A stretch of DNA of 64,000 nucleotides from an uncultured Candidatus Actinomarina sp. (GTDB lineage Bacteria > Actinomycetota > Acidimicrobiia > Actinomarinales > Actinomarinaceae): the NCBI GenBank assembly GCA_902628045.1, contig CACOLU010000003.1:14039-78038 (forward strand). Reading direction: 5' to 3'. The translations under genes and the position numbers were made by a program. Below are positions 20,000-52,407 of this stretch, piece by piece. The stretch's first letter is position 1. Each line of letters starts with the position of its first letter. The notes under the pieces are model-generated. The model was not told where the DNA came from and ran no database searches. It saw only the letters and a program-made list of their open reading frames with translations.

Positions 20000-20464
20000 A
20001 TGAAAGTTGTTTTGCAGAGAGTTAAAAGTGCATATGTAAAAGTTGGATCAAGTATTGTCTCAGAAATTGATAAGGGTTATTTACTTTTATGGGGTATCGA
20101 GGAATCAGATTCTGAAGTAGAAAGTAAAATTTTAATTAATAAAATTTTAAATTTAAGAATTTTCTCTGACGAAAATTTGAAAATGAATAAATCAATAATT
20201 GATGTCTCTGGGGAAATACTAATTGTAAGTCAATTCACATTAGCTGGAAAACTTTTGAAAGGGAACAGACCTTCGTTTGTAAATGCAAAATCTCCAGAAA
20301 TAGCTGAAAACATGATTTCCAATATTGTTGAAGAATTTTCTAAGCATATAACTGTAAGATCAGGGAGTTTCGGTGCCATGATGGATGTGGGTTTAGTCAA
20401 CGATGGGCCATCAACTTTTGTATTGTCTGCTAAAAATGGAAAATTAATTGATCAAGCAGACTGA
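20000..20464 (+). CDS. dtd: D-aminoacyl-tRNA deacylase
   Basis: 154 aa. MKVVLQRV N-terminus, SQFTLAG, and GAMMDVGLVNDGPSTF C-terminal motif. Confidence 0.9.
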   Translation: MKVVLQRVKSAYVKVGSSIVSEIDKGYLLLWGIEESDSEVESKILINKILNLRIFSDENLKMNKSIIDVSGEILIVSQFTLAGKLLKGNRPSFVNAKSPEIAENMISNIVEEFSKHITVRSGSFGAMMDVGLVNDGPSTFVLSAKNGKLIDQAD

Positions 20465-20880
20465 AGTTTAGCTTTTTTTCCTATTTCTTTTTTGTCTAGC
20501 TGCTTATCAAGATAATATTCTTCTCCAGCCCATAAATGTAGTCCAAGCCCAAGTTTCATAGCACATCTTTTGAAAGAATCTGATTCTGCGTGTTTTGCGT
20601 TACTTCCATCATTTTTTTGATCGTGCTCCACGTCGCCGATAGATGTTACAGTAACTAATTTACCATCTATTTCAACAGTTAATTTTCCAAAGCAACCAAC
20701 AACTGCTCCAGTATTTTCTTGTCGAATTAATTCAACAACTTCCCAATCAAATGGACCGCAAACTTCTAGAAGGCGTTGTGTAATTACTGAATGTGGCACA
20801 TAATTTCCAAACTTACCTTTGGGCGCTTTTTTGATCCAATCTTTTGGAAATTTTCTTGATAGTTCATATAATTGTTTCAT
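20452..20880 (-). CDS. Rad52/Rad22-family single-strand annealing protein (Sak/DdrA-like)
   Basis: By eye it aligns to the Rad52 N-terminal core: YVPHSVITQRLLEVCGPFDWEV vs [22 protein letters not shown], beta-hairpin GAVVGCFGKLTVEIDGK, and AESDSFKRCAMKLGLGLHLW vs [21 protein letters not shown]. The start is set at the ATG that forms an ATGA overlap with the upstream stop (20877-20880). Confidence 0.7.
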   Translation of the reverse strand: MKQLYELSRKFPKDWIKKAPKGKFGNYVPHSVITQRLLEVCGPFDWEVVELIRQENTGAVVGCFGKLTVEIDGKLVTVTSIGDVEHDQKNDGSNAKHAESDSFKRCAMKLGLGLHLWAGEEYYLDKQLDKKEIGKKAKLQSA

Positions 20881-21398
20881 TTTCTTCTCTCCATTTCTTT
20901 CAAATTTTTTGCCCACACTGGTGCAGCATCATTGCTTGTTTGAATAACTTGTAATCTTGGTTCCTCATCCCAAACTTTCTCTATAAAAGTATCTCTTGCT
21001 AATTGCTTATCCATTCCTTTTTTTTCTGCAACTGCATCCAGCCCTCGTAGTTTTGGAACAGAAGCTGTTCCAAAAAGTGCTACTAAGTTTTCAATATCAT
21101 CTTCTGAGAGTTTTTTTCTTGTAGCCCAGTCAATCAATCTCTTTAAATCGATAGTTTTTGATTTATAACTTTTAGAGTAATTAAAAACAGTATCAGATAT
21201 TTTTATTGCTCCTTTTTCTTGAACATCGTGAGCAATCTTATTATCAACAAATTTATTTATTTTATAAGTACTATCTTTTGCCTCTAGAGAGACCCCTCTT
21301 GCAATAAATAATTCATCAGGTTCTTTAATTGTGTGCAATTCAGTGTTTTCTAAAGTTTCTTCACCACTTTTGGCAATATCCCAGATCAAATCTTTCAT
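20877..21398 (-). CDS. Hypothetical protein, translationally coupled partner of the Rad52-like annealase
   Basis: 173 aa intact ORF with an AGGAAA RBS 6 nt upstream. No motif I can assign. It has a short RGLDAV segment, and its size is faintly reminiscent of Mu Gam-type end-binding proteins, but that is unsupported. Confidence 0.5.
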   Translation of the reverse strand: MKDLIWDIAKSGEETLENTELHTIKEPDELFIARGVSLEAKDSTYKINKFVDNKIAHDVQEKGAIKISDTVFNYSKSYKSKTIDLKRLIDWATRKKLSEDDIENLVALFGTASVPKLRGLDAVAEKKGMDKQLARDTFIEKVWDEEPRLQVIQTSNDAAPVWAKNLKEMERRK

Positions 21399-21413
21399 AT
21401 ATTTTCCTATAAC

Positions 21414-21530
21414 TTATGCTGCTTCATCATATACTGTATGACAATCGCATCGGTCATTGTGGTCTAGGCAAATAAAGTTCGCTTTGATCCCAGATATTTC
21501 AAGTAATTTAATTATTTCCTTTTCTTTCAT
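21414..21530 (-). CDS. Small Cys/His-rich ORF (38 aa), first gene of the Rad52-like cassette
   Basis: Hand translation gives MKEKEIIKLLEISGIKANFICLDHNDRCDCHTVYDEAA. It ends 15 nt before the next gene on the same strand. The CxxH-x3-CxCH pattern could bind zinc. Confidence 0.35.
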   Translation of the reverse strand: MKEKEIIKLLEISGIKANFICLDHNDRCDCHTVYDEAA

Positions 21531-21610
21531 AATTTATAATTTAGAAATGCAGTGTGACAAAAAAAATAAAATAACAATCTTTCTAACAAAAACCCATATA
21601 TGATGAGCTT

Positions 21611-22876
21611 GTGATAGTTGAAAATAATCTCTTTGACTCACATATGTATAAAGAAGTCATTGCACAGTATGACGAAGTTTCTGATTTAATTAATCTTGAC
21701 TCCAATATAAAAGAGAGACTTAAATTACCTCAAAGATCTCTAGTAGTAACTTTTCCATTTAGAAGAGATGAATATGATGAGGTTGAGACGGTAACTGGAT
21801 ATAGAGTTCAACATGTTTTATCAATGGGCCCTACTAAAGGTGGTATTCGGTATGCACCAGATGTAAATCTAGGTGAAGTTACAGCCCTAGCTATTCTTAT
21901 GTCTTGGAAGTCTGCAATTGTAGGGTTACCTTATGGTGGTGCAAAAGGTGGTGTAGCGATAGACCCAAAACCTTTGACTCGAGCTGAAAAGCAACGAGTT
22001 ACAAGAAGGTATACAGCTGAATTATTACCAATTATTGGCGTTGATAAAGATATACCCGCTCCTGATCTAGGTACAGATGAGCAAACAATGGCATGGATAA
22101 TGGACACTTATAGTAACTTTGTTGGCTCACCACAGCCTGGAATAGTGACTGGAAAACCCGTTTCTCTTGGTGGCTCAATAACTAGACGAGAATCAACAGG
22201 TAGGGGTGCAGTTGCTGTTGGTCAAGCAGCTATGGAAAAAATAGGTAAAAGTTATAAAGATTCAAGAGTCGTAATTCAAGGATTTGGAAATGTTGGTAGG
22301 TTTGCAGCTTTAGATTCATATGAAAGAGGAGCAAAAGTTATAGCAGTAAACGATTTAGGTGGTGCTGTAATAAATAATAATGGTCTTAACATCCCTGAAC
22401 TTTTTAAACATATTGCCAAAAGCCAATCGGTTAAAGGATTTTCAGGTGGAGAGGAATATGATGGGGAAATCCTTGAAGTTGATTGCGATGTTTTAATACC
22501 TGCAGCTATTGGAGGAGTTCTTACCTCTAGCAATGCTGATAAAATTAAAGCTAATGTAGTAATCGAAGGTGCTAATTCTCCTACAACAACAAATGCAGAT
22601 AAAATCTTAAGAGAAAATGGCATAATGCTTATTCCAGATATTCTTGCTAATGCCGGCGGAATTACTGCAAGCTACTTTGAGTGGGTACAAAATACACAGA
22701 ATTATTTATGGAAAGAAAAAGAACTTCAAGAAAAATTGATTGACGTTATGCTGACTGCTTTCGAAGAAGTTTGGACAATTTCACAAAAACAAAATTGCGA
22801 TTTACGTACAGCCGCACTTATCAAAGGCATTAAAAGAGTAGCTGCAGCAAAATTGACTAGAGGTTTATTTCCCTAA
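21611..22876 (+). CDS. gdhA: NAD(P)-specific glutamate dehydrogenase
   Basis: 421 aa. Motifs KGGIRY, GLPYGGAKGG and GFGNVG. GTG start. Confidence 0.95.
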   Translation: MIVENNLFDSHMYKEVIAQYDEVSDLINLDSNIKERLKLPQRSLVVTFPFRRDEYDEVETVTGYRVQHVLSMGPTKGGIRYAPDVNLGEVTALAILMSWKSAIVGLPYGGAKGGVAIDPKPLTRAEKQRVTRRYTAELLPIIGVDKDIPAPDLGTDEQTMAWIMDTYSNFVGSPQPGIVTGKPVSLGGSITRRESTGRGAVAVGQAAMEKIGKSYKDSRVVIQGFGNVGRFAALDSYERGAKVIAVNDLGGAVINNNGLNIPELFKHIAKSQSVKGFSGGEEYDGEILEVDCDVLIPAAIGGVLTSSNADKIKANVVIEGANSPTTTNADKILRENGIMLIPDILANAGGITASYFEWVQNTQNYLWKEKELQEKLIDVMLTAFEEVWTISQKQNCDLRTAALIKGIKRVAAAKLTRGLFP

Positions 22877-23836
22877 TAGTTCTTCTATTTCAGACTGAAT
22901 AGTGACTTTTTTTTCTTCTAATTCTGATATCTGTAACTTAATATTTTTTTTACCGTTATTTCCAATTGGACTTCCTTTAGGAAGCTCATTCTCATTTTTA
23001 AACATATCTAAAACTTGAAATTCTTCTTCTAGTTCTATAATTGCTTCATTAATAATCCTTAGTTCCTCGGTGCTAGGGGGGTTCTCATTAAATTCTGGAC
23101 ATATTGGTTTGTAGTAACACCAATCACAGAGATTATTTTTTACTGCTGGGAATTTATTTTCTTTATATGCTTTTTTAATATTGGTCCATATTTCTAATAT
23201 TTCTCTTCTTGCAGTGTTTAAATCTTCTTCATTAATTTTTAAAGTATGAATCGTCGAATTCTTTAGATAAATTAATTTCAATTCTGCAGGCATTTCACCA
23301 AGCTCTTCTTTTATTAAAAGCGCGTAGAGTTTTAAAGCAAAAAATCTTGGTTCTTTATATTTAGCCATAGGCGCTTTCCCACTTTTGTAATCAACAATAA
23401 TAAGTTCTCCATTTCTGTTCCTATCCATCCTGTCTAGAATGCCTCTTAAATTTAAATCTTCAATACTTCCTCTTACCCAACGTTCACGTTCTAATGGATT
23501 AAAGGTTGTTGGATCTTCTATTGTCATGTAATTATTTAATAATTTAAGTCCATCTATACCCCAGTCTCTTTCTTCTTCAACAGATGAAAAGAGATTATGA
23601 TGCTCGTCCGTTCCTCTTACTTTGGTCCAAGCATCTCTAAACAAATCATGTAGTTTTTCAATACTTCTCTCGTCCTGAGGTAAGTCAAATAAATCTTCTA
23701 ATGCTTGATGAACAGTTGTACCTTTTGCTTGAACCTCATTTGTTGGTTCCTTTAATTTATCTACGTTTGCATATTTAAACTGTTGAGGGCATGTTTTAAA
23801 CTGTGACGCTCTTGAAGGTGATAAATTTTTAATCAT
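22865..23836 (-). CDS. PD-(D/E)XK nuclease with Cas4/AddB-like Fe-S cysteines and a C-terminal coiled-coil tail
   Basis: GILDRMD ... LIIVDYKSGK nuclease motifs. One N-terminal Cys (FKTCPQQ) plus C-terminal CDWCYYKPIC give the Cys4 pattern of RecB-family Fe-S nucleases. The last ~70 aa are E/K/L-rich. Confidence 0.75.
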   Translation of the reverse strand: MIKNLSPSRASQFKTCPQQFKYANVDKLKEPTNEVQAKGTTVHQALEDLFDLPQDERSIEKLHDLFRDAWTKVRGTDEHHNLFSSVEEERDWGIDGLKLLNNYMTIEDPTTFNPLERERWVRGSIEDLNLRGILDRMDRNRNGELIIVDYKSGKAPMAKYKEPRFFALKLYALLIKEELGEMPAELKLIYLKNSTIHTLKINEEDLNTARREILEIWTNIKKAYKENKFPAVKNNLCDWCYYKPICPEFNENPPSTEELRIINEAIIELEEEFQVLDMFKNENELPKGSPIGNNGKKNIKLQISELEEKKVTIQSEIEELLGK

Positions 23837-23882
23837 GTCTAAATTATATATATATTAAATGACAAAATTGTAAAATGTGTTT

Positions 23883-30810: not shown

Positions 30811-31233
30811 CTAAGATAAATTCAATATCAAAACTGGTATTTTTCGTTCTGTTCTTTGCTGATAATTGGAGTATCCTCCTTTATTCATATAATCCATTTT
30901 TGACCACCAATCTTCACGTTCTTCATTGAATATTTCTTTTGCAACTGCTGTATATTTATTTTTTCCAATTTGAATTTCACAGTTTGGATTAGCTTTTAAA
31001 TTATGATACCAACCTGGATTTGTAGGACTTCCACCTTTTGATGCCACTAGGCAAATCTCATCGCCTTCTTTCATGAATACAAGTACATTTTTTCTTAACA
31101 AATTGGTTTTTGCACCGGTTGAGAAAAGAATTAAACAAGGACGACCTTGTAGAAATTTTCCTATTCTTCCATTTGAGTAGATATAAATATAATTATGAAA
31201 AAACAAAAAAATAAAAATTAAATATCTTCTCAT
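30811..31233 (-). CDS. Deazaflavin (F420)-dependent nitroreductase-family (DDN/FDOR-A) protein
   Basis: GRPCLILFSTGAKTN ... ASKGGSPTNPGWYHNLKANP ... match the DDN family signature. The start is placed at the Met forming an ATGA overlap with the upstream photolyase-like stop (31230-31233). Confidence 0.75.
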   Translation of the reverse strand: MRRYLIFIFLFFHNYIYIYSNGRIGKFLQGRPCLILFSTGAKTNLLRKNVLVFMKEGDEICLVASKGGSPTNPGWYHNLKANPNCEIQIGKNKYTAVAKEIFNEEREDWWSKMDYMNKGGYSNYQQRTERKIPVLILNLS

Positions 31234-32429
31234 AAACTTAACTTTATCTTTTTTCTCCATGAACTAAAACTTGTAGGATAAAAATTAATTGGTTCTGCAA
31301 GTCTTAATGCTGGAAATTCAACTGATGGAATATTTTGTTTTGTGATTTTTTTGTATTTTGGTACTGGTGCAAATGTAGATGCAAAATTTTTATTTTGTAA
31401 ATAGTCTTCAGGATTAGCTAAATAAACCTGTAATTCTCTTTTGCTATTTATTTCTTTTAAACAGTCAATTAAAAAATTTAATCTTTTAGTCGATAATTGT
31501 AATTTACTTAATAATTCCTTATCGAAAATAAAAATTACGGGAAGTTCGTAATAATAACTCATAGCCGGATCACTGTCGCCAATTGATTCACCTGTAATCC
31601 ACACAAATGATGGAGGAGTGCTGTTGTTTTCTTTTATTTCTTTTGGACCAAATACTTTTTGTTCGTCTACTTTAAAATCATGATCTATTTTTCCAGAAAT
31701 ATTAGTATCAGGCCAATCTTGTATGGGGCAGTTATATTTCAATTCACAACCATTACATAACTGTGGTCCTCTCTTTTCAACTTGAAATTTAGAAAATCCA
31801 TATGGCTTTCCCGTTTGAGATCCCATTACCCAATGCCAACCTAATCTGTTTGCAAAACGTGAACCATCAATCAAATGTTGAAACATATAATCCTCATATT
31901 TATTCCAATCATTACCAACTCTTAAAGAATTATGAGATGCAAACCACATTCGCGTTTGATTAACCATGTAACCTGTTTTTTCTAGCTCATCTTCGATTGC
32001 AGTAATACAATTCATATTTTTATAATTATCCGCATTTGAATTAGGTTTTTCTATTTTGTAGTTGAGAAATTTTTTTGATTTTTTACCAATTATTGCGTAC
32101 AAATGTCTTGAAAACTCCTGCCAAAGAAGTTCATCTTGGAATTTAGTTCTATCTTTATATTCAAATTTCTCAACTGCTCGCCATACTTCAGAAAGACTTA
32201 GTAAGCCGTGTCGTATATAAGGTGATAGATAAGATGAACCCCTTGAATTTGTAGGGTATACATTATTCCGTTTTGTAGCGTATTTGTTAATATCTAGCTG
32301 ATTTAATGCATTATCAGCATTTGATTGGCCACCTGACAAAAATGGATAGGTGAAGTCATCGCAACAAAGTCCACTAAAGTATTTTTTTATTATTTCTGCA
32401 TTATCAAGTTGTAGATCAATTAAAGACAT
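31230..32429 (-). CDS. Photolyase/cryptochrome-superfamily protein with inverted domain order (NewPHL-like)
   Basis: aa 1-240 carry FAD-binding-domain motifs: GGQSNADNAL, SYLSPYIRHGLLS, ELLWQEFSRH, GYMVNQTRMWFASH, DGSRFANRLGWHWVMG. aa ~275-399 look like the photolyase alpha/beta domain (FVWITGESIGDSDPA...VIFIFD). Cys141, Cys225, Cys228 and Cys234 form a possible Fe-S pattern. Confidence 0.7.
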   Translation of the reverse strand: MSLIDLQLDNAEIIKKYFSGLCCDDFTYPFLSGGQSNADNALNQLDINKYATKRNNVYPTNSRGSSYLSPYIRHGLLSLSEVWRAVEKFEYKDRTKFQDELLWQEFSRHLYAIIGKKSKKFLNYKIEKPNSNADNYKNMNCITAIEDELEKTGYMVNQTRMWFASHNSLRVGNDWNKYEDYMFQHLIDGSRFANRLGWHWVMGSQTGKPYGFSKFQVEKRGPQLCNGCELKYNCPIQDWPDTNISGKIDHDFKVDEQKVFGPKEIKENNSTPPSFVWITGESIGDSDPAMSYYYELPVIFIFDKELLSKLQLSTKRLNFLIDCLKEINSKRELQVYLANPEDYLQNKNFASTFAPVPKYKKITKQNIPSVEFPALRLAEPINFYPTSFSSWRKKIKLSL

Positions 32430-32438
32430 TAAACGTAT

Positions 32439-32654
32439 TTAGTACTTATCTTGTCCGATTCGTATATTTACAACTGTTAAAACTTCCTCAATATTTTCTA
32501 TATCAAAATTTACTCTCTGCCCCTGCCTTAGTGTTCTAAATATAGATCCTTTTAAGGATCCAGGTGCAAGAAAGACTTCTGTTTTATCAGTGTCTAATAA
32601 AATAATTCCATTACCCGTATTTGGGTCATAAGACTTAACAACACCTTGAGCCAT
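32439..32654 (-). CDS. Cold-shock-domain-like small OB-fold protein
   Basis: 71 aa. GVVKSYDPNTGNGIILLD resembles a divergent CSD N-terminus. TAATG overlap with rpmB. Confidence 0.5.
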   Translation of the reverse strand: MAQGVVKSYDPNTGNGIILLDTDKTEVFLAPGSLKGSIFRTLRQGQRVNFDIENIEEVLTVVNIRIGQDKY

Positions 32655-32890
32655 TAAACTTTTTCGCCTCTACTTCTAATTTCTTTAACTACAGACTCAA
32701 TTCCACGCTTGTCAATTACTTTGTTGCCTTTTGTACTAACTTTAAGCTTTACCCATCTATTTTCACTTGCAAGCCAATATTTTTTAGTTTGAATATTTGG
32801 TTTAAACCATCGATTGTTTCTTTTATGAGAAAAAGATACATGTTTACCTGATCTCGGCTCTCTTCCAGTTACTTGACATCTATTTGACAT
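32654..32890 (-). CDS. rpmB: 50S ribosomal protein L28
   Basis: 78 aa. MSNRCQVTGREPRSGKHVSFSHKRNNRWFKPNIQ is canonical L28. Confidence 0.95.
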   Translation of the reverse strand: MSNRCQVTGREPRSGKHVSFSHKRNNRWFKPNIQTKKYWLASENRWVKLKVSTKGNKVIDKRGIESVVKEIRSRGEKV

Positions 32891-32975
32891 TATATTTTCC
32901 TCTAAATTACATTTATAACTATAACTAATTTATTAATTTGTAGGTACTTTCATTTTAAAACTTTTTAGGTAATGT

Positions 32976-35102
32976 TTGATTGTGGTTGAAAGAAGCTTAA
33001 ATTACTTGGATAATATAAAACTTGATTCTTTAAAGGGATTGGGTGAAAAAAGATATTCAAATCTTAAAAAAAACAACCTTTCTTCTGTTACTGATTTGAT
33101 TAGATATTATCCAAAAAAGCATATTGATAGATCAAAAATAAAGTCAGTTCAGGAAATTGATCAATCAGATATTGAAAAAGATGTAACAATAATTGGTACG
33201 ATAGTAAATGTATCGGTTTTTACAACTAAATCGCGGTTAAGAATAACAACTCTTTCAATAAAAGACAGTACGGGTTCATTAAAAGCGAAGTGGTTTGGTC
33301 CCCAATACATCGAATCTAGGTTTAAGGAGGGCGAAGATGTTGCTATTTCTGGAAAACCCGAAATAAAAAAAAGAGGCTCTATAGAATTTAAAAATCCTAC
33401 AATTGAAAAATTTGCTGATATTGAAGAACTAAGTGAGACAGGATCTTTAATTCCAATGTACCCAAAAGTAGATGGTGTTTCAAGTGGTGTGATTAGAAAA
33501 GCAGTAAAAGACGCATTGGCAATTATAGATATTGCAAAAGAGGAGTTTCAGCCCGGAATTGAAGATATGCTTCCGGATGAGATTGTAAAGAAAAATTCGC
33601 TTTTTACCAGAACTCAAAGCTTTAAATCAATTCATTTTCCTAAAACTATTGAAGAATATCAACAAGCAAGGGAAAGACTTGCACTAGATGAATTTATTTA
33701 CTTACGTTCCATATTTGAAAATTTGAAATCTGAGTTTAAAACTAAAAATAAAGGACCCAAATATAATTTTAAGAATTCATTTGTTGATTCTTTTGTAAAA
33801 GACTTACCCTTCATTCTTACTAAATCACAAGTAAAAGCTTATGAAGAAATCCTTGAAGATTTGAAAAATGATTATCCTATGAAAAGGTTGCTTCAAGGTG
33901 AAGTTGGTTCGGGAAAAACTGTTGTTGCTGCAATTTCAATATATGCTGTCGTAAATTCTGGTTATCAAGTTGCACTTATGGCACCAACAGAAGTATTGGC
34001 TGAACAACATTTGAATTCATTAAATGAGTTTTTAAGAGATACAGATATTGAAATTAATTTTTTAACATCCTCTGTTAAAGATAGGAGCCAAGTCATGAAT
34101 AATATATCTGATGGCAAGCCAGGATTATTTATAGGTACGCATGCTTTAATACAAGATAAAATATACTTTACCAATTTAGGTCTTGTAATTATTGATGAGC
34201 AACAAAGATTTGGAGTTGATCAAAGAAAAAAACTAATTTCAGATTCTCAAATAACTCCTGATCAACTTGTAATGACAGCAACACCAATACCAAGAACTAC
34301 TGCTTTATCTTTATATGGTGATCTTGAAATATCATCAATAAACGAATTACCACCCGGTAGGAAGCCTATTATTTCACATTTATATAGTGGTTTAAAAAAA
34401 GATAATGAGAAAGTTTTCGAAAAATGCGCAAAACACTTAGACGATAATTCACAGATATTTGTAGTTTGTCCATACATAGAAGAGAGCGAATCGTCTGATA
34501 TACAGGCAGCAGAAAAGGTTTTTTTAGAATATTCAAAAAGATTTATGAAATATAACGTTGTTCTTTTGCATGGAAAGATGTCATACGAGCAAAAAGAAAT
34601 GATTATGAGATCAATGCAGGAGGGCTCAATAGATATTCTTGTCTCAACTGTAGTAATAGAGGTAGGTATAGATATTCCAAATGCCACATTAATGATTATT
34701 GAAAGTGCTGAGAGATTTGGCCTTAATCAATTGCACCAACTAAGAGGTAGGGTCGGAAGAGGTGAAAAACAATCAGAGTGTATATTTCATGTTACAAATA
34801 AAAAATCTCTCAACACTATTAATGAAGAAGGCGTAAAAAGACTAGAAGCTATTTCAACAATGAGTGACGGTTTTAAATTATCAGAAATAGATTTAGAAAT
34901 ACGAGGTGAGGGAAAAGTGACAGGTAAGAACCAATCAGGAAGATCAGACTTAAAAATAGCTGATTTACGTTACGATTATGCCCTACTACTTCAATCCAAG
35001 AAAATTTATGATCATATTAGAAGTTCAGAATCGTCAAATAAAGTCTTTGAAGAAGCGAAATTATTATTTCCAAATTATTTTCAAGCAGATGGCACTACAT
35101 GA
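32976..35102 (+). CDS. recG: ATP-dependent DNA helicase RecG
   Basis: 708 aa. Wedge/OB N-terminal domain, GEVGSGKTVVA, DEQQRFGV, TATPIPRT and QLRGRVGRG motifs. TTG start. Confidence 0.95.
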   Translation: MIVVERSLNYLDNIKLDSLKGLGEKRYSNLKKNNLSSVTDLIRYYPKKHIDRSKIKSVQEIDQSDIEKDVTIIGTIVNVSVFTTKSRLRITTLSIKDSTGSLKAKWFGPQYIESRFKEGEDVAISGKPEIKKRGSIEFKNPTIEKFADIEELSETGSLIPMYPKVDGVSSGVIRKAVKDALAIIDIAKEEFQPGIEDMLPDEIVKKNSLFTRTQSFKSIHFPKTIEEYQQARERLALDEFIYLRSIFENLKSEFKTKNKGPKYNFKNSFVDSFVKDLPFILTKSQVKAYEEILEDLKNDYPMKRLLQGEVGSGKTVVAAISIYAVVNSGYQVALMAPTEVLAEQHLNSLNEFLRDTDIEINFLTSSVKDRSQVMNNISDGKPGLFIGTHALIQDKIYFTNLGLVIIDEQQRFGVDQRKKLISDSQITPDQLVMTATPIPRTTALSLYGDLEISSINELPPGRKPIISHLYSGLKKDNEKVFEKCAKHLDDNSQIFVVCPYIEESESSDIQAAEKVFLEYSKRFMKYNVVLLHGKMSYEQKEMIMRSMQEGSIDILVSTVVIEVGIDIPNATLMIIESAERFGLNQLHQLRGRVGRGEKQSECIFHVTNKKSLNTINEEGVKRLEAISTMSDGFKLSEIDLEIRGEGKVTGKNQSGRSDLKIADLRYDYALLLQSKKIYDHIRSSESSNKVFEEAKLLFPNYFQADGTT

Positions 35103-40715: not shown

Positions 40716-43361
40716 ATGTATTTAAAATCATTAGATATTAATGGGTTCAAGTCTTTTGCAGAAAAGACAACTATTCAATTATCAGACGAAGTAAATGTTA
40801 TTGTTGGACCTAATGGTTCAGGCAAGTCAAATGTAGTAGATGCAATATCTTGGGTATTGGGAACCCAAAGCCCCGCCACTCTTAGAACTAACAAGATGGA
40901 AGATGTGATATTTGCTGGTACTGAAAAATTATCAGAAAAAGGATTTGCTGAAGTCTATTTAAATTTCGAAGTTGATGAACAAAAATTTAACGGAAATAGT
41001 GAAATTTCCATAGGAAGAAAACTGTTTAGAGATGGTACTTCTGAATACTTTATGAATGGCTTAAATTGCAGATTGTTAGATATTCAAGAGTTTTTAAGTG
41101 ACGTAGGTATAGGTAAACAGCAACATATCATAATTTCACAAGGTCAAATCGCTGAAATATTGAATTCAAAGCCTGAGGATCACAGATTAACAATTGAAGA
41201 AGCTTCAGGAATTTTACCTTTAAGATCGAAAAAAGAAAAAGCGCTCAAGAGAATTGAATCTGGTGATAAAGAAATCAAAAGAGCTAAAGATGTTTTACGT
41301 GAGATTAGAAAACAACTGAAGCCTCTACAGGAACAAGCTGAGCAGGCAAGGCTTCATGAAGATGTAACAAATCAACTAAAAGATAGAAATATAAAACTAC
41401 ATACTTTGCTTTATAGAAAATTTCAAAATGAATATGAAGATTTAAAAATCAAAGAAAATGAACTTTCAAATTCAATTGAGTCTATTGAGTTAAAAGTTGA
41501 AAATTTGAAAAAAGAAAAACTAAGAATAAATAATGAACTTGGCGATGGAGTTTCCATTGGCTCTACATTTAAAGAATATTCCTCAAAAATTAACAATGTT
41601 ACTGAACAATTAAGATCAATTGCTCAAGTGGCAAATGAAAGAAAAGATAATTTAGAACGTGAAGATTTTAGGAATATAGAGCAAATTAATAAAATTTCAA
41701 AAAAAATAGATCAAAATTCAGATCAGATAAATATGCTTTCTAATCAGTTGGTGTCTAAACAATATTCTTTAAAGAATCTTCAATCAACTTATGATGATTT
41801 AAAAACACAACTCGAGTCTGTTATTAAGAAATCTTCTGCATCAAAAGAAGTAAATGAAGCATTGCTAGAAAATGAAATTAAGTCATTACAAAAGAACATA
41901 TCTGAAACATCACAAGATTTAGGAGTACTAAATCTTGAACTTAGTAAGTGGGAGAGCGATGTTAAAAATTCAGAAGACCTTTTACAGAAATTTAATAATG
42001 ATATTAAAAGCACTGAATTTAATATTTCTTCAAAAGATGAATATGTTACTTTTCATCAAAATATCTTGAATAGGGAATTTAACTCATCAAAAGAAAAAAT
42101 AAATCAAATAACTTCTAAGAATGAAACTATGGAAAGAGAATTAAGTCAAAAAGAAGTATTGCTTTCTGGAATTAATCAAAATGAAGAGTTCAAAATTGAT
42201 ATAAATAATCAAAAGATTGATTTAGAAAAACAGATTGAAAATTTAGAAAATCAAATAACTTCAATTTCTAACCAATTAGTCACTTCTCAAGAAAGAATCA
42301 AAAATCTTACGGAACAAAATAATGAATTTCTTAATGAAAAAGAAAAAATCTCATCTACTAAAAATGCCACTTCAAAATCAGATTTAGAAAAGCTTGTTTC
42401 TGAAATAAAAGACTTTATTACATTTACAAATAAAACGAGTAATTTATTAGCTCAAAAATCTGAAGAGTTTGATGATAAGTATGGAAATACTAATAAAAAA
42501 ATTCAGAAAATTGATTCAGAAATTGAACAGTTAAATAAAAATTATTTTGATATAAAAGAGGAAAAAACCGCAGTAGTAATTAAACTATCTGAAAATCAAG
42601 TTTCTACTTCATCTCATTTTTCTACATTAAAAAATATTTATGGTTTGAATGACGAAAGTCTTATTCATGTACAAACTGATGGATTGATTCAACATACTTT
42701 AGAAAATGAAATAAAAAATTATGAGACTCAATTAGAAAATATAGGTACAGTAAATTATTTAGCTAAAGAAGATTTTGAAACCTTAAATTCAAGACATGAA
42801 GAAATAACAGGAAACATAGAAGACTTAAATTTAGCCAAAAAAGAATTGAATTCACACATTAAAGAAATTGAAAATGAAATATCATTTAGAATTGAATCTT
42901 CATTTAATTCAATTTCAGTGCATTTTTCTGAAATATTTGAAACTTTGTTCCCTGGAGGAAAAGGATCTTTGTCATTCACAGATAAAGAAAATATTTTAGA
43001 AACTGGAATTGATATTTCGGTACAACCTAAAGGTAAAAAGGTTAAGAAATTAAGTTTATTATCTGGTGGAGAAAAATCTTTAGCTGCAATAGCATTCTTA
43101 TTCTCTATATTTAAGTCATTCCCAAGCCCTTTTTATATACTTGATGAAGTTGAAGCTGCACTCGATGATGCTAATTTACATAGAATGATTAACTTATTAA
43201 AGCATGTAAAGGGAGATGCTCAATATATTATTGTTACACACCAACAGCAGACTATGCATGCTGGAGATGTTTTATATGGGGTTACTATGGAGCCAGGTTC
43301 TGGATCAAGAGTGTTTACAAAAACTAAAGCAGATTTTGAAGAGTTGATAAACAAATCATGA
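40716..43361 (+). CDS. smc: SMC-family chromosome partition ATPase, unusually short (881 aa)
   Basis: Canonical N-terminal Walker A head (GPNGSGKSNVVDAISWVLG) and C-terminal signature/Walker B (LSGGEKSLAAIAF...ILDEVEAALD). The intervening ~540 aa are continuous coiled-coil-like sequence. Syntenic position after rnc-mutM. Confidence 0.85.
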   Translation: MYLKSLDINGFKSFAEKTTIQLSDEVNVIVGPNGSGKSNVVDAISWVLGTQSPATLRTNKMEDVIFAGTEKLSEKGFAEVYLNFEVDEQKFNGNSEISIGRKLFRDGTSEYFMNGLNCRLLDIQEFLSDVGIGKQQHIIISQGQIAEILNSKPEDHRLTIEEASGILPLRSKKEKALKRIESGDKEIKRAKDVLREIRKQLKPLQEQAEQARLHEDVTNQLKDRNIKLHTLLYRKFQNEYEDLKIKENELSNSIESIELKVENLKKEKLRINNELGDGVSIGSTFKEYSSKINNVTEQLRSIAQVANERKDNLEREDFRNIEQINKISKKIDQNSDQINMLSNQLVSKQYSLKNLQSTYDDLKTQLESVIKKSSASKEVNEALLENEIKSLQKNISETSQDLGVLNLELSKWESDVKNSEDLLQKFNNDIKSTEFNISSKDEYVTFHQNILNREFNSSKEKINQITSKNETMERELSQKEVLLSGINQNEEFKIDINNQKIDLEKQIENLENQITSISNQLVTSQERIKNLTEQNNEFLNEKEKISSTKNATSKSDLEKLVSEIKDFITFTNKTSNLLAQKSEEFDDKYGNTNKKIQKIDSEIEQLNKNYFDIKEEKTAVVIKLSENQVSTSSHFSTLKNIYGLNDESLIHVQTDGLIQHTLENEIKNYETQLENIGTVNYLAKEDFETLNSRHEEITGNIEDLNLAKKELNSHIKEIENEISFRIESSFNSISVHFSEIFETLFPGGKGSLSFTDKENILETGIDISVQPKGKKVKKLSLLSGGEKSLAAIAFLFSIFKSFPSPFYILDEVEAALDDANLHRMINLLKHVKGDAQYIIVTHQQQTMHAGDVLYGVTMEPGSGSRVFTKTKADFEELINKS

Positions 43362-49996: not shown

Positions 49997-50405
49997 GGAT
50001 AAAAACACACTGAACTTCTACACATACATTTAATGGAAGGCTGGAAACACCAACAGCTGATCGTGTTGATTTTTCATTAAAGTATTCTGAAAGTTTATCT
50101 GTAAATCCGTTAAGGACTTTTGCGTGGTCCTCAAAACCTTCGTTTGCATTTACAAAACCAATAACATTAACAGGCTGCAAGTTTTGAATAGACCCATGTT
50201 TTTTGATTGTTGCAATTGTAAGTTCAGCACATAACTCTGCAGCTTTATAAGCTTCATCTATAGAAATCTCAGTTGGTACTTTTCCTACATATTTATATTC
50301 TTCAGTAATAGGAACATGTCCAGATGTGTAAACGTAGTTTCCAATTTTTTTATAGGTAACATAATTTCCAATAGCTTCAGGAGCGATTGGAAAATCTTTA
50401 TCCAT
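49989..50405 (-). CDS. RidA/YjgF/L-PSP family protein
   Basis: 138 aa. GNYVYTSGHVP ... RSAVGVSSLPLNVCVEV pattern of the RidA fold. Confidence 0.8.
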   Translation of the reverse strand: MDKDFPIAPEAIGNYVTYKKIGNYVYTSGHVPITEEYKYVGKVPTEISIDEAYKAAELCAELTIATIKKHGSIQNLQPVNVIGFVNANEGFEDHAKVLNGFTDKLSEYFNEKSTRSAVGVSSLPLNVCVEVQCVFIHE

Positions 50406-51402
50406 TATTTAAAAGATTTCCTATAAGATCCACAACTCTGTTTGAATAACCCCATTCATTGTCATACCAGCATACTACTTTGACATGATTTCCATCTAGC
50501 AATTGAGTTGATGATGCATCGTAAATACTTGAATGTGGATTATTTAATATATCAGTTGATACAAGCGGAATGTCGGAATACTCTAAAATACCCTTTAGCT
50601 CGTTATCTGAAGCGTGTTTCACAGCTAAATTTATATCTTCAATTGTTACTGACTTTTCTAATTCAACTACTAAATCAACAACACTTCCATTTGGTACTGG
50701 AACTCTCATAGCCATTCCATCTAATTTACCGTTTAATTCAGGTAAAACCATACCAACAGCTTTAGCTGCACCTGTTGAAGTAGGGATTATATTTTGGGTA
50801 GCACTTCGGCCTCTTCTAAAGTCACTATGGGTAGTTTCAGCTAATGCTTGGTCGTTAGTATATGCATGAACTGTGGTCATAAGACCAGATTTGATTCCAA
50901 AATTATCATCTAGAACTTTAGCTATAGGAGCTAAACAATTTGTAGTACATGAAGCATTAGATACAATTTTATCATCAGGATTCAAATCTCCATCATTCAC
51001 ACCCAGAACTATAGTTGCATCAATTTCATCTTTTGGAGGAACAGTAAGCAATACTTTTTTAGCACCTGCATTCAGATGCTTGTTAAGAGATTCATTATCT
51101 CTAAAAATTCCTGTCGATTCAATTACAACATCAACTTCTAACTCACTCCATGGAAGTTCAGCAGGATCTTTTATCGAAGTAAGCTTTATTATTCTTTCAT
51201 CAACTAAAAGTTTATCTCCATCAACTCGCACATCACTATCTAATATGCCCATAACAGAGTCGTGTTTTAAAAGATATGCAAGGTTTTCATAATTGCCCAA
51301 ATCATTAATGGCAACGACATTGATATCAGAATTACTTTCAACAATAATTCTTAATATAGAACGTCCAATTCTACCAAAACCATTAATGGCTACATTACCC
51401 AT
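50398..51402 (-). CDS. gap: Glyceraldehyde-3-phosphate dehydrogenase (type I, catalytically complete)
   Basis: 334 aa. Motifs INGFGRIGR, SNASCTTNCLAP (Cys152), TTVHAYT, STGAAKAV, MRVPVP and WYDNEWGYS. Confidence 0.95.
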   Translation of the reverse strand: MGNVAINGFGRIGRSILRIIVESNSDINVVAINDLGNYENLAYLLKHDSVMGILDSDVRVDGDKLLVDERIIKLTSIKDPAELPWSELEVDVVIESTGIFRDNESLNKHLNAGAKKVLLTVPPKDEIDATIVLGVNDGDLNPDDKIVSNASCTTNCLAPIAKVLDDNFGIKSGLMTTVHAYTNDQALAETTHSDFRRGRSATQNIIPTSTGAAKAVGMVLPELNGKLDGMAMRVPVPNGSVVDLVVELEKSVTIEDINLAVKHASDNELKGILEYSDIPLVSTDILNNPHSSIYDASSTQLLDGNHVKVVCWYDNEWGYSNRVVDLIGNLLNNG

Positions 51403-52407
51403 CTAAAACACCTGCCCCAGTTTTTTTACTGTATCGACAATTCTAGCCGCATAACCCCATCCATTATCGAACCATATAATGAGCTTAATTTTTTTATTTT
51501 TAATAACCATAGTGGCTAATCCATCTACTAAACCAGAGAGTGTACTTCTTACAACATCTGAGGAAACAATTGGATCATACGTTAATCCAATAATATTTTT
51601 TAATTCTGATTTAGAAGCATTCTCAATAATTCTATTAATATCTTCAATACTGGACTCGTTTTTGATATCAATTGTCAAATCAACTGTACTTCCATCAGGA
51701 ATGGGTACTGTCATTGAAGATGAAGCAATTTTACCTTCAATGAATGGAAGAACATTTGCTATAACTTCAGAGGATTTAGTAATATTTGGGATAATATTTT
51801 CACCAGCTGCTCTGTTAAGTCTGAATCCTTCACCTGCAACATCTGCTAAACGATTTGAATTTGAATATCCGTGAACAGTTGTAAGAAATGCTCTTTCAAC
51901 CCCAACTTTACTTTCTAAAGCTTTAAGAATAGGTGCAACTGCATTTGCTGTATTAGAACCTAAGGAAAATGCATTTGAGTTTAAATTTATATCTTCATCA
52001 TTTGCACCAGGGACATATATTTGAATATCTTTAAAATCTTCTGGAGTTGATGCTACGATAACTTTTTTACAACCTTTTGATAAATGTTTTTCAACATCTT
52101 CTTTTGTTTTAGGTTTGCCAGTTGCAAGAACTACGACATCAGTATTGAGTTTATCCCATTTAGCATCATCGCCATCTTTCCAAGTATTAAAAACTATTTC
52201 TTTACCATTTACAACAATACCTGTCTCGGAATCTTCAATTTCTGCATCAAGCTGTCCATATATAGTGTCGTACTTTAATAAATAAATTAAATTTGCTTTG
52301 TCGGCAGTATCTGAAATTGACACAATGTTAATGTCTTCATCATTCAATGTTTGTCTAAATAGATCTCGGCCTATTCTTCCAAATCCAACTAGTGAAATAT
52401 TTGTCAT
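51403..52407 (-). CDS. GAPDH-like paralog lacking the catalytic cysteine (probable pseudoenzyme or neofunctionalised)
   Basis: 334 aa and colinear with gap. VGFGRIGR, TTVHGYS and WFDNGWGYA are retained. The active-site SCTTNC is SNTANA (Asn152; codon AAT at 51952-51954, checked). TGAAKAV is replaced by TKSSEVI, and MRVP by MTVP. Confidence 0.85.
   Translation of the reverse strand: MTNISLVGFGRIGRDLFRQTLNDEDINIVSISDTADKANLIYLLKYDTIYGQLDAEIEDSETGIVVNGKEIVFNTWKDGDDAKWDKLNTDVVVLATGKPKTKEDVEKHLSKGCKKVIVASTPEDFKDIQIYVPGANDEDINLNSNAFSLGSNTANAVAPILKALESKVGVERAFLTTVHGYSNSNRLADVAGEGFRLNRAAGENIIPNITKSSEVIANVLPFIEGKIASSSMTVPIPDGSTVDLTIDIKNESSIEDINRIIENASKSELKNIIGLTYDPIVSSDVVRSTLSGLVDGLATMVIKNKKIKLIIWFDNGWGYAARIVDTVKKLGQVF

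What the first reader, a model, noticed from the sequence alone, without database searches (positions are those of the whole stretch)
20452..21530. Chromosomal Rad52-family annealase in a compact three-gene cassette with no phage context
Seen: three minus-strand ORFs (38 aa Cys/His-rich, 173 aa unknown, ~142 aa Rad52-like) are tightly linked. There is a 15-nt gap with an AGGAAA RBS, then an ATGA overlap at 20877-20880. The last protein aligns by eye with the Rad52 N-terminal DNA-annealing core (YxxxxxVIxxLxExxGxxxW, the beta-hairpin, and the KRxxxxxGxGLxLW helix). Established: bacterial Rad52-type SSAPs (Sak-like) are overwhelmingly prophage-encoded, with Deinococcus DdrA as a chromosomal exception. 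Here the cassette sits between dtd (13-nt convergent overlap) and gdh, with no integrase, att repeats, or structural or lysis genes. Inference: this is a domesticated recombination or end-protection module, and the 173-aa partner may be an undescribed accessory factor.
Basis: partly seen in the sequence, partly recalled or inferred. Interest (0 to 1): 0.65.

Follow-up and report, generated by a model that had tools for sequence, protein, structure and literature searches.

The report
Domesticated phage annealase operon in Actinomarina
One of the ocean's most abundant and most genome-reduced bacteria keeps, as a conserved and actively transcribed chromosomal operon, a DNA-strand-annealing protein of the Rad52 type plus an unknown helper protein that otherwise occur together only in phages, so it looks like a viral recombination kit turned into a host DNA-repair tool.

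Summary
Three tightly linked minus-strand genes (38 aa, 173 aa, 142 aa) lie between dtd and gdh. The 142-aa protein belongs to the Rad52 family: Pfam PF04098 scores above its cut-off, and the AlphaFold model matches RAD52 and Mgm101.

The window comes from Ca. Actinomarina. All 26 related Actinomarinales loci I fetched carry the cassette in the same synteny, with no phage genes, tRNA, att repeats or GC anomaly nearby. All three genes are under purifying selection. The annealase has dN/dS of 0.015-0.045, as low as or lower than gdh.

Outside this lineage, both the annealase (38-57% identity) and the 173-aa partner (31-46%) are found in phage or phage-like contigs. There they co-occur, and in three low-GC contigs they overlap in the same order. 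This points to a single capture of a phage module. The partner's fold has no PDB match.

Two further findings:
- A conserved TTGTCACAC-8nt-TAAATT promoter lies 7 nt before the ATG. It has the architecture of the actinobacterial RecA-independent (PafBC) DNA-damage promoter and implies a leaderless mRNA.
- Marine metatranscriptomes show that the operon is transcribed. In some samples its depth is 5-15 times that of its neighbours.

A role in repair or annealing is inferred, not shown.

The parts
21538..21560 (-). Conserved promoter: TTGTCACAC - 8 nt - TAAATT. The -10 element ends 7 nt before the ATG of the 38-aa ORF, which implies a leaderless mRNA. It has the same architecture as the actinobacterial RecA-NDp/PafBC promoter.
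   Evidence: The sequence is. The element is conserved in all 24 aligned upstream regions (window plus 23 Actinomarinales loci) while the flanking intergenic sequence diverges. The consensus tTGTCRgtg-8nt-TannnT is quoted in PMC5656591. RNA contigs end at 21525, and none cover 21531-21628. The pattern alone is not statistically significant.
21414..21530 (-). 38-aa Cys/His micro-protein, the first gene of the operon. The conserved motif is I-C-x-[DN]-H-[NS]-[DN]-x-C-[DN]-C-H ... A-A. It is probably a small metal-binding protein; a regulatory leader peptide is the alternative.
   Evidence: It is present at exactly 38 aa in all Actinomarinales loci, at 47-100% identity, with C21, H24, C28, C30 and H31 kept. 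dN/dS is 0.08-0.39. It is transcribed at the highest depth of the operon. It has no family hit and no homologue in the phage loci.
21399..21413 (-). 15-nt spacer carrying the AGGAAA ribosome-binding site for the 173-aa gene.
   Evidence: Read directly from the sequence.
20877..21398 (-). 173-aa partner protein. It belongs to an uncharacterised, phage-derived family that co-occurs with Rad52-like SSAPs.
   Evidence: It has no Pfam, NCBIfam or PDB match. The family is small: 42 representatives among 1.84 billion proteins. Homologues lie next to a Rad52-like SSAP in L027, L029/L030, L032, L042, L043 and L044. The AF2 model has pLDDT 90.5. BFVD matches are uncharacterised phage proteins and actinophage Cas4-family exonucleases. 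dN/dS is 0.06-0.12.
20452..20880 (-). 142-aa minimal Rad52-fold single-strand annealing protein (SSAP). It is translationally coupled to the partner through an ATGA overlap.
   Evidence: PF04098 scores 27.8 bits, above the GA cut-off of 20.3. It hits PHROG 3290 and 1097. The AF2 model has pLDDT 87.5. Foldseek top hits are Mgm101 and human RAD52 NTD, with E of 2.5e-6 to 2e-4 (the best about 1e-6 to 1e-5), probability 1.0 and TM 0.54-0.59. A marginal profile hit to the Sak3-type DUF1071 structure 8qe9 shares the KRC...GLGL.hW/Y motif. dN/dS is 0.015-0.045.
22865..23836 (-). 323-aa PD-(D/E)XK / Cas4-family nuclease with a Cys cluster. It is a conserved neighbour beyond gdh and a possible, unproven, resection partner. 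It is not part of the operon.
   Evidence: PDDEXK_1 E=7e-34 and Cas_Cas4. The same position is kept in L001 and L005. It aligns with the nuclease domain of actinophage TIN4 gp36 (E=1e-11), whose full-length protein was matched by the partner model in Foldseek; an hhalign that is not significant places that match in its C-terminal domain. Against a link: its TTGTCA element is not conserved, and its RNA depth does not rise with the operon.

Best explanation
An ancestor of Ca. Actinomarinales captured a two-gene phage recombination module: an accessory protein followed by a minimal Rad52-fold single-strand annealing protein. The lineage has kept it as a core chromosomal operon and added a lineage-specific 38-aa Cys/His micro-protein in front.

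The operon is transcribed as a leaderless mRNA. Its conserved promoter has the layout of the actinobacterial RecA-independent (PafBC-type) DNA-damage promoter.

Proposed mechanism:
- When ssDNA is exposed at breaks or gaps (these are sunlit-surface cells), the operon is switched on.
- The annealase oligomerises on ssDNA and pairs complementary strands, giving single-strand-annealing or gap repair that needs only short homology.
- The 173-aa partner acts as its cofactor. It sits where Gam, gp157, DUF1351 or DUF2483 proteins sit in other phage SSAP modules, so it most likely binds or protects DNA ends or loads the annealase.

Shown here:
- Rad52 family membership and predicted fold.
- Phage ancestry of both proteins and their co-occurrence.
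- Synteny conserved across the lineage.
- Strong purifying selection.
- Transcription in situ, with a 5' end at or near the first ATG.
- Conservation of the promoter.

Inferred: annealing activity, the partner's role, metal binding by the micro-protein, and damage induction.
For: Rad52 membership:
- Pfam above its cut-off, PHROG SSAP families and fold matches to Mgm101 and RAD52.
- The invariant K96, S100, D101, R105, G111, G113 block is SDxFKRCxxxxGLGLHLW. It aligns with the KRC..GLGL motif of the solved Sak3-type protein.

Host and fixation:
- L007, a Ca. Actinomarina single-cell genome, is 99% identical. Twenty GTDB species representatives carry the cassette.
- The same gene order, gdh/38aa/partner/SSAP/dtd, holds in L001 (SSAP 75% and partner 47% identical) and in L005, which lies on a 1.01-Mb contig.
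- dN/dS is 0.015-0.045 for the SSAP, 0.06-0.12 for the partner, 0.03-0.07 for gdh and 0.10-0.24 for dtd.

Phage origin:
- SSAP relatives at 50-57% identity lie in contigs with portal, holin, terminase and endolysin genes.
- Partner relatives lie beside an SSAP in L027, L029, L032, L042, L043 and L044.
- The IMG/VR contig L044 reads primase, exonuclease, partner, SSAP, DUF669 SSB-like, endolysin. Partner and SSAP overlap there as they do in the window.

Promoter:
- TTGTC[A/T/G][C/T]AC-8nt-TAnnTT is conserved in all 24 aligned upstream regions (window plus 23 loci) while the flanks diverge.
- It matches every upper-case position of tTGTCRgtg-8nt-TannnT (PMC5656591).

Expression:
- RNA contigs cover 20406-21525 and stop there.
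- Operon depth is 44-137 in X3 and X4 against a neighbour median of about 3-10. It is about 10 in X1 and X2, from the same study.
- The operon was detected in 8 metatranscriptomes from 3 studies. In X17 it is almost the only part of a 7-kb region that was seen.
Against: - There is no biochemical evidence of any kind.
- The promoter pattern alone is not significant in 64 kb. TGTC-N12-TANNNT-N7-DTG has 1 hit against 0.76 expected, and the looser pattern has 5 against 1.8. The 'gtg' of the mycobacterial consensus is CAC here.
- I could not check whether Actinomarina encodes PafBC, or whether its recA and uvr genes carry the same element.
- Expression comes from assembler contig depth, which is a poor measure, and sample metadata are coded. 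'Variable' is therefore shown, but 'damage- or light-induced' is not.
- The operon lacks the SSB and exonuclease genes that accompany SSAPs in phages.
- The nearby PD-(D/E)XK nuclease is neither co-regulated nor shares a conserved promoter element.
- The protein is only 142 aa and lacks the C-terminal tail that many SSAPs use to contact SSB.
Confidence: 0.6

Rival explanations
1. A DdrA-like end-protection system. The Rad52-fold protein, with the partner, binds 3' ssDNA ends and shields them from exonucleases until repair can proceed. It does not catalyse annealing itself.
For: The only established chromosomal bacterial precedent, Deinococcus DdrA, is a Rad52-family protein. It is induced by damage and protects ends (PMC515370, listed; the details are from my own knowledge). 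The protein here is a minimal core with no obvious SSB-interaction tail. The partner occupies the position held by Gam-type end binders in phage modules (PMC8093625).
Against: The closest relatives are phage SSAPs sitting in exonuclease-SSAP-SSB modules typical of annealing recombination. The RAD52-type DNA-binding helix motif is invariant. The sequence alone cannot separate the two activities.
Confidence: 0.2
2. A constitutive recombination or replication helper, not a damage response. The annealase promotes RecA-independent recombination of short or diverged ssDNA, for example incoming DNA or lagging-strand gaps. This would contribute to the unusually strong homologous-recombination signal that keeps Actinomarina species cohesive. 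On this reading the promoter's resemblance to RecA-NDp is coincidental.
For: Lopez-Perez et al. 2020 infer recombination at the top of the bacterial range for this order (PMC7771536). The operon is expressed at levels similar to its neighbours in X1, X2 and X6. The promoter motif is not significant on its own.
Against: Depth differs 5-15-fold relative to neighbours between samples of one study. An upstream element 8 nt from the -10 is strictly conserved, which is unusual for a plain housekeeping promoter.
Confidence: 0.13
3. An anti-phage or superinfection-exclusion function. The host keeps a phage recombination pair to interfere with, or act as a decoy for, the recombination machinery of infecting phages.
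For: Both proteins have their relatives in phages, including low-GC marine phage contigs that could infect similar hosts. Phage SSAPs are known targets of Abi systems (PMC8093625).
Against: No cassette protein has a convincing PADLOC defence-family hit; the only hit is a weak one for the partner (PDC-S02, E=0.005, 14 bits). The cassette sits in the syntenic core rather than in a flexible island. Its very low dN/dS is the opposite of arms-race evolution.
Confidence: 0.04
4. An inert remnant of an old prophage with no host function.
For: The two larger genes have phage ancestry.
Against: The three ORFs are intact, of equal length and translationally coupled in 26 loci spanning up to 53% partner divergence. 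dN/dS is 0.015-0.12. Transcription is high. The genome is about 1 Mb and extremely streamlined (PMC7771536).
Confidence: 0.02

Closest known systems
Deinococcus radiodurans DdrA (chromosomal Rad52-family protein)
   Same: It is a bacterial, chromosomal Rad52-family protein that is fixed in a lineage rather than carried by a prophage. It is linked to the DNA-damage response. Here that link rests only on the promoter architecture and on variable expression.
   Different: The phylum and the regulatory system differ. The gene here is in an operon with a 173-aa partner and a 38-aa Cys/His protein, neither of which DdrA has. Here the closest relatives are identifiable phage SSAPs. Orthology to DdrA was not tested because no DdrA sequence was on hand; NCBIfam gave no hit.
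Phage Rad52-type SSAPs (Sak of ul36, Sak3/DUF1071, Erf, mEp235 Rad52/22; Mycobacterium phage Marvin gp63; Polaribacter phage P12002L)
   Same: It is in the same superfamily by HMM and by fold. tblastn gives 29-32% identity to Marvin gp63, the P12002L protein and the mEp235 protein. Uncultured phage relatives reach 57% identity.
   Different: It is not in a phage. It has no adjacent exonuclease (Marvin has gp62) and no adjacent SSB (L044 has DUF669). It is shorter than most of these proteins: 142 aa against 350 aa for Marvin gp63.
Eukaryotic RAD52 N-terminal domain and mitochondrial Mgm101
   Same: They are the best structural matches to the predicted fold. The beta-beta-beta-alpha core is shared, with TM 0.54-0.59 and probability 1.0. 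The K/R-rich helix motif is conserved.
   Different: Sequence identity is only 16-20%. The protein here has no C-terminal RPA/RAD51-interaction region. Ring formation was not tested.
Gam (Mu), Sipho_Gp157, DUF1351, DUF2483: genes found immediately upstream of erf/sak4-ssb modules
   Same: The 173-aa partner occupies the same position, immediately upstream of the SSAP-SSB pair, in L044 (PMC8093625). There is a weak Foldseek match to a Gp157 protein (probability 0.51).
   Different: It shows no sequence relationship to any of these Pfam families. No Ku/Gam-like structure appears among the 50 PDB fold matches listed. It is a separate family.
Actinophage Cas4-family / RecB-like exonucleases with a C-terminal extension (Tsukamurella phage TIN4 gp36, Arthrobacter phage KellEzio, Gordonia phages)
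   Same: The partner model matches the full-length proteins in Foldseek (E=5e-3 to 9e-3, probability 1.0, TM 0.41-0.46). A co-linear hhalign places partner residues 13-155 on TIN4 gp36 residues 264-397, the domain that follows the nuclease and Cys cluster. The window's separate 323-aa nuclease aligns with the N-terminal nuclease domain of the same protein.
   Different: The hhalign score is not significant (E=0.24). The partner has no invariant acidic or lysine residues and so is not a nuclease itself. The 'split exonuclease' reading is a lead, not a result.
RecA-NDp / P1 promoter of the mycobacterial PafBC DNA-damage regulon
   Same: TTGTCA, the 8-nt spacer measured after a 9-nt element, and the TAnnnT -10 all match. 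As in many actinobacterial genes, the transcript would be leaderless.
   Different: The 'gtg' positions are CAC. The regulator was not shown to exist in Actinomarina, and induction was not shown.

Membership tests
Rad52/Rad22 family (Pfam PF04098; Rad52 SSAP superfamily) | Sequence match to the family profile above the curated threshold | tested here: met
   27.8 bits against a gathering cut-off of 20.3, E=2.8e-6, covering residues 6-121. PHROG SSAP families score 3.6e-13 and 2.6e-10.
Rad52/Rad22 family (Pfam PF04098; Rad52 SSAP superfamily) | Beta-beta-beta-alpha annealing-domain fold | tested here: met
   The AF2 model (pLDDT 87.5) has the order H30-41, E45-53, E60-71, E74-83, H91-109. The top 17 Foldseek PDB hits are all Mgm101 or RAD52 NTD, with E of 2.5e-6 to 2e-4. 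The structure is predicted, not solved.
Rad52/Rad22 family (Pfam PF04098; Rad52 SSAP superfamily) | Conserved basic ssDNA-binding residues on the long helix | tested here: inconclusive
   K96, S100, D101 and R105 are invariant and K104 nearly so, in SDxFKRC...GLGLHLW. The motif aligns with KRC..GLGL of the solved DUF1071 protein 8qe9, but only at E=0.19. Its equivalence to human RAD52 K152/R153 rests on my memory of that sequence.
Rad52/Rad22 family (Pfam PF04098; Rad52 SSAP superfamily) | Oligomeric ring or filament on ssDNA and strand-annealing activity | not testable with these tools
   This needs purified protein, examined by EM or SEC-MALS and by an annealing assay.
DdrA-type chromosomal end-protection protein | A Rad52-family protein encoded in the core chromosome, not in a prophage | tested here: met
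   Synteny is conserved across 26 loci with no phage genes nearby.
DdrA-type chromosomal end-protection protein | Induced by DNA damage | tested here: inconclusive
   There is a conserved RecA-NDp-like promoter, and depth relative to neighbours varies 5-15-fold between metatranscriptomes. The sample conditions are unknown.
DdrA-type chromosomal end-protection protein | Orthology to Deinococcus DdrA; binding and protection of 3' ends | not tested
   No DdrA sequence was available. NCBIfam gave no hit. The activity needs biochemistry.
Phage SSAP recombination module (exonuclease-SSAP-SSB) | Located in a phage or prophage | tested here: not met
   There is no integrase and no structural or lysis gene. 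There is also no tRNA, no att repeat and no GC shift. The relatives do meet this feature.
Phage SSAP recombination module (exonuclease-SSAP-SSB) | SSAP gene adjacent to an exonuclease and/or SSB gene | tested here: not met
   In the window the operon contains only the 38-aa ORF, the partner and the SSAP. The nearest nuclease is 1.3 kb away, across gdh, and is separately transcribed. The phage contig L044 does meet this feature.
RecA-NDp / PafBC-regulated promoter | tTGTCRgtg - 8 nt - TannnT upstream of the gene | tested here: met
   TTGTCACAC-8nt-TAAATT matches all upper-case positions and the spacing, but 'gtg' is CAC. It is conserved in 24 of 24 aligned upstream regions, window plus 23 loci. 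It is not significant as a single-window pattern.
RecA-NDp / PafBC-regulated promoter | PafBC (WYL) regulator present, and the same element upstream of recA/uvr genes of the organism | not tested
No WYL gene was seen among the window ORFs that I annotated. No paper covers the question.
Gam / Gp157 / DUF1351 / DUF2483 (genes upstream of SSAP-SSB) | Sequence or fold membership in one of these families | tested here: not met
   There was no Pfam hit at E<=1. No PDB fold match reached E<=0.001. The only link is a weak Gp157 match in BFVD (probability 0.51). The position is analogous, but the family is not the same.

The most novel reading that the evidence does not exclude
The 173-aa protein founds a new class of SSAP cofactor. 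It is shared by marine and actinobacterial phages and was captured, together with a minimal Rad52 annealase, by Ca. Actinomarinales. With the 38-aa zinc micro-protein, the two form a damage-induced break-repair pathway under PafBC-type control in a free-living actinobacterium whose genome is only about 1 Mb. That would be a second, independent and ecologically dominant case, after DdrA, of bacteria adopting Rad52-type repair. It might also help explain the order's exceptionally strong recombination signal.
Probability: 0.3. Interest if true: 0.75.

Novelty: new variant of a known kind. Interest (0 to 1): 0.62.

Why it matters
Bacterial Rad52-type annealases are regarded as phage equipment, and DdrA is the textbook chromosomal exception. 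Here a whole order of very abundant surface-ocean bacteria keeps such a protein as one of its most constrained genes. Their genomes are about 1 Mb, and little that is dispensable survives in them. The gene is also highly expressed in situ.

Three things follow:
- The cassette is a natural experiment in how phage recombination modules are domesticated.
- The conserved partner family becomes a testable candidate cofactor for Rad52-type SSAPs. That is relevant to recombineering tools, where host compatibility of SSAPs is the bottleneck.
- The result points to a specific DNA-repair adaptation in sunlit, streamlined plankton, and to a possible PafBC-type regulon outside the well-studied Actinomycetes.

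Tried and rejected
1. The gene upstream of the SSAP in phage contigs L004 and L028 (246 and 238 aa) is not a partner homologue (BLASTP E=13; HMM). It has no Pfam or NCBIfam hit. Its PD-(D/E)XK look rests on motifs read by eye only.

2. The Marvin gp62 exonuclease is unrelated to the partner.

3. The TTGTCA-N11-TATAAT element upstream of the 323-aa nuclease (23865-23843) looked like a second RecA-NDp site. It is present only in the window and its 99% twin L007, so it is a chance match. Only the -10 and the leaderless spacing are conserved.

4. I tested the idea that the partner equals the C-terminal domain of actinophage Cas4-family exonucleases, using seven sequences and hhalign. The alignment is co-linear but not significant (probability 0.25%, E=0.24). 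I keep it as a lead.

5. A profile search of the 5.8-billion-protein set with alignment A1 listed only Actinomarina-type proteins in its top 120. It revealed no fusion architectures.

6. The tandem 334-aa genes at 50398-52407 were checked as possible pafB and pafC. They are two GAPDH paralogues.

7. PADLOC gave no defence hit for the cassette. Rfam gave nothing. No att-like repeats were found.

8. A viral-contig scan with P0212 found nothing.

9. Literature searches found no paper linking Actinomarina with Rad52 or with PafBC or the proteasome.
Full report
**Observation.**
- The 38-aa ORF is at 21530-21414.
- A 15-nt spacer with AGGAAA follows.
- The 173-aa ORF is at 21398-20877.
- An ATGA overlap links it to the next gene.
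- The 142-aa ORF is at 20880-20452, and its end overlaps the convergent dtd gene by 13 nt.

The mechanical ORF list extends the last gene to a GTG at 20916, but homologues are 142 aa and begin MKQLYEL. dtd, gdh, the PNPOx-like gene and the other neighbours were confirmed by Pfam.

**The 142-aa protein is a Rad52-family annealase.** It scores 27.8 bits on Pfam Rad52_Rad22 against a cut-off of 20.3, and has a weaker Mgm101 hit. It matches the PHROG 'single strand annealing protein' and 'Erf-like' families at 3.6e-13 and 2.6e-10. An AlphaFold2 model built on 28 homologues (pLDDT 87.5) has the helix, three long strands and long helix of the Rad52 core. In Foldseek, the 17 hits with E<=0.001 are all yeast Mgm101 or human RAD52 N-terminal domain, with E of 2.5e-6 to 2e-4, probability 1.0 and TM 0.54-0.59. 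The family alignment has an invariant block, K96...S100-D101-x-F-K-R105-C...G111-L-G113-L-H-L-W. A profile search of PDB sequences aligns this block, marginally (E=0.12-0.19), with the KRC...GLGL motif of a solved DUF1071 (Sak3-type) protein.

**Host and context.** The window is Ca. Actinomarina.
- A single-cell genome, AH-287-A16, is 99% identical.
- Twenty GTDB species representatives labelled Ca. Actinomarina, OCS155 or Actinomarinales carry the 173-aa gene.
- HMM searches of all fetched loci found partner and annealase adjacent in every one of 26 Actinomarinales loci.
- The 38-aa ORF is present in all of them at exactly 38 aa.
- The order (PD-(D/E)XK nuclease)-gdh | 38aa-partner-SSAP | dtd-PNPOx-3HCDH-ACAD is the same in a 1.01-Mb contig (L005) and in a more divergent lineage (L001-L003), where the annealase is 75% and the partner 47% identical.
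- Within 6 kb on either side there is no integrase and no structural or lysis gene. There is no tRNA in 64 kb, no GC anomaly and no att-like repeat.

The published analysis of this order reports that prophages are rare, that about 80% of genes are core, and that the homologous-recombination signal is very strong. It does not mention this cassette (PMC7771536). No paper pairs Actinomarina with Rad52.

**Selection.** I computed pairwise Nei-Gojobori dN/dS between the window and six Actinomarina loci.

| Gene | dN/dS |
|---|---|
| Annealase | 0.015-0.045 |
| Partner | 0.06-0.12 |
| 38-aa ORF | 0.08-0.39 |
| gdh | 0.03-0.07 |
| dtd | 0.10-0.24 |

The annealase is thus at least as constrained as a central metabolic enzyme. 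That excludes an inert remnant.

**Phage ancestry and the partner.** Outside Actinomarinales, annealase relatives at 50-57% identity lie in contigs with Mu-type portal, holin, terminase, amidase and WhiB genes (L004, L027, L028). Cultured relatives at about 30% identity include Mycobacterium phage Marvin gp63, which is preceded by an exonuclease, as well as Polaribacter phage P12002L and mEp235.

The 173-aa protein has no Pfam, NCBIfam or PHROG family. Only 42 cluster representatives among 1.84 billion proteins match it. Its distant members (26-46% identity) are again in phage-like contigs, and wherever enough flank is available a Rad52-like SSAP lies beside them:
- L029/L030: the SSAP is immediately upstream and overlapping, and a VRR-NUC gene is downstream.
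- L032: the SSAP is about 430 bp downstream.
- L027: the SSAP is about 820 bp downstream.
- L042, L043 and L044 (low-GC contigs): partner then SSAP, overlapping exactly as in the window.

L044 is an IMG/VR viral contig. It reads primase, exonuclease (phrog_284), 86-aa ORF, partner, SSAP, DUF669 SSB-like protein, endolysin.

The partner-SSAP pair is therefore a phage module. The SSAP can also occur without the partner (L004, L028). The monophyly implied by identity values (>=71% within Actinomarinales, <=57% to anything else) together with the fixed insertion site argues for a single capture.

**What the partner looks like.** Its AF2 model is confident (pLDDT 90.5). It has a long helix (27-62), a three-stranded sheet, four helices and a beta-hairpin.
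- It has no PDB match at E<=0.001.
- BFVD matches are uncharacterised phage proteins (E about 3e-4) and full-length actinophage Cas4-family/RecB-like exonucleases (TIN4 gp36, KellEzio; probability 1.0, TM 0.41-0.46). There is also a weak match to a Siphovirus Gp157 protein.
- TIN4 gp36 consists of a PD-(D/E)XK domain (5-261) followed by a roughly 135-aa C-terminal domain.
- An hhalign of the partner family against seven such exonucleases places partner residues 13-155 co-linearly on TIN4 264-397, but without statistical support (E=0.24).
- The family has no invariant acidic or lysine residues; the invariant positions are W91, F138 and P160. It is therefore not itself a nuclease.

In Firmicutes phages, the slot immediately upstream of erf/sak4-ssb is occupied by Gam, Gp157, DUF1351 or DUF2483, which are thought to be functionally analogous (PMC8093625). 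The partner occupies that slot in L044.

The window's separate 323-aa Cas4-family nuclease (22865-23836) aligns with the nuclease domain of TIN4 gp36 (E=1e-11) and is a conserved neighbour. A 'split exonuclease' reading is therefore possible, but it is unproven. It is also not supported by co-expression.

**The 38-aa ORF.** It is specific to Actinomarinales, with no counterpart in the phage loci. It keeps the motif C21-x2-H24-x3-C28-x-C30-H31 and the C-terminal AA. It is the most deeply covered part of the operon in RNA contigs (134-197 against 45-90 downstream). I read it as a small metal-binding protein. A leaderless regulatory uORF is the alternative, but sequence conservation along its whole length favours a functional peptide.

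**Promoter and transcription.** Upstream of the 38-aa ORF lies TTGTCACAC-TGCATTTC-TAAATT-ATAAATT-ATG (21560-21528).
- Across the 24 aligned upstream regions (window plus 23 loci), TGTC and the TAnnTT hexamer are invariant. The spacing is fixed, while the surrounding intergenic sequence diverges.
- The -10 element lies 6-8 nt before the ATG, so the mRNA should be leaderless.
- This layout is that of the actinobacterial RecA-independent promoter, tTGTCRgtg-8nt-TannnT. [quoted passage not shown] All upper-case positions match, but 'gtg' is CAC.
- On its own the pattern is not significant in this AT-rich window. A second apparent site before the nuclease gene is not conserved.

Marine metatranscriptome contigs cover the operon from 20406 to 21525 and then stop. 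Nothing covers 21531-21628. This fits a transcription start at the ATG and argues against DNA contamination.

In two runs of one study the operon is by far the most deeply covered part of a 20-kb stretch, at 44-137 against a median of about 3-10. In two other runs of the same study it is at the level of its neighbours, about 10. It was detected in four further runs from two other studies, and in one of them it was almost alone. Contig depth is a crude measure and the sample conditions are coded. I therefore claim 'expressed and variable', not 'damage-induced'.

**Mechanism.** The best-supported reading is a domesticated phage single-strand-annealing module that serves host DNA repair or recombination. 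The promoter architecture suggests it is switched on by DNA damage. The annealase would coat ssDNA and pair complementary strands. The partner would act as a cofactor at DNA ends or in loading. The rivals are:
- a DdrA-like, purely protective role;
- a constitutive recombination role connected with the order's strong recombination signal;
- an anti-phage role, for which there is no PADLOC support and which the core location and low dN/dS contradict;
- an inert remnant, which is refuted.

**Novelty and limits.** Chromosomal Rad52-family proteins have a precedent in DdrA, and phage Rad52-type SSAPs are well known, so this is not a new kind of system. What is new:
- order-wide domestication in a dominant, streamlined marine lineage;
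- the three-gene operon;
- the previously undescribed partner family and its linkage to SSAPs in phages;
- the PafBC-type promoter.

Three things were not established: any biochemical activity, the presence of PafBC or a regulon, and induction conditions. I also could not show presence in all Actinomarinales genomes, because only pattern-matched loci were retrieved.

Noticed in passing
window 50398-51402 and 51403-52407 (both minus strand): Two adjacent 334-aa glyceraldehyde-3-phosphate dehydrogenase paralogues lie in tandem, with Gp_dh_C E=1.8e-68 and 1.7e-39. This is unexpected redundancy in a genome of about 1 Mb.
   Followed up: no
window 23836-23865 and the same region in L005-L026: The PD-(D/E)XK/Cas4-family nuclease gene has a conserved TATAAT/TATAGT 6-7 nt before its ATG in most Actinomarina loci (not in L026 or L001-L003), so it is probably leaderless too. 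The TTGTCA upstream of it exists only in this strain and in L007.
   Followed up: yes
window 21414-21530 versus 20877-21398, in RNA runs X3 and X4: RNA contig depth over the 38-aa ORF (134-197) is 2-4 times that over the partner gene (45-90). This may reflect attenuation after the small ORF, a separate short transcript, or only an assembly artefact.
   Followed up: no
window 21408 (spacer between the 38-aa ORF and the partner gene): RNA contigs from X3 and X4 carry a 2-nt deletion in the 15-nt spacer. Co-occurring strains therefore differ in the spacing between the stop codon and the RBS.
   Followed up: no
L041 1267-2677 (35.8% GC, 2.8-kb marine contig): This contig holds the closest non-Actinomarina partner homologue (46% identity). 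It is followed not by an SSAP but by a 163-aa protein with an N-terminal CxxC...HH..C motif and a 131-aa protein with a nuclease-like ExK motif read by eye. Neither has a Pfam hit. The partner may therefore work with other DNA enzymes as well.
   Followed up: partly
window 31230-32429(-), 32976-35102(+), 40716-43361(+): A photolyase-like FAD_binding_7 protein, RecG and an SMC protein lie 10-20 kb from the cassette. None has the TTGTC-type promoter element.
   Followed up: partly
window 32430-32975: This 546-nt stretch has no ORF of 100 aa or more. It holds small minus-strand ORFs that look, by eye, like ribosomal protein L28 and a small cold-shock-like protein. I did not check this with a family search.
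   Followed up: no
proteins P0048, P0065, P0083, P0088, P0089: Some metagenomic gene calls join part of the annealase sequence (31-58% of it, at 74-98% identity) to unrelated Pfam domains: sulfotransferase, PF01799, pterin dehydratase, PF07230 and dtd. These are probably mis-calls across the convergent overlap or chimeric contigs. Alternatively they could mark strains with different neighbours.
   Followed up: no
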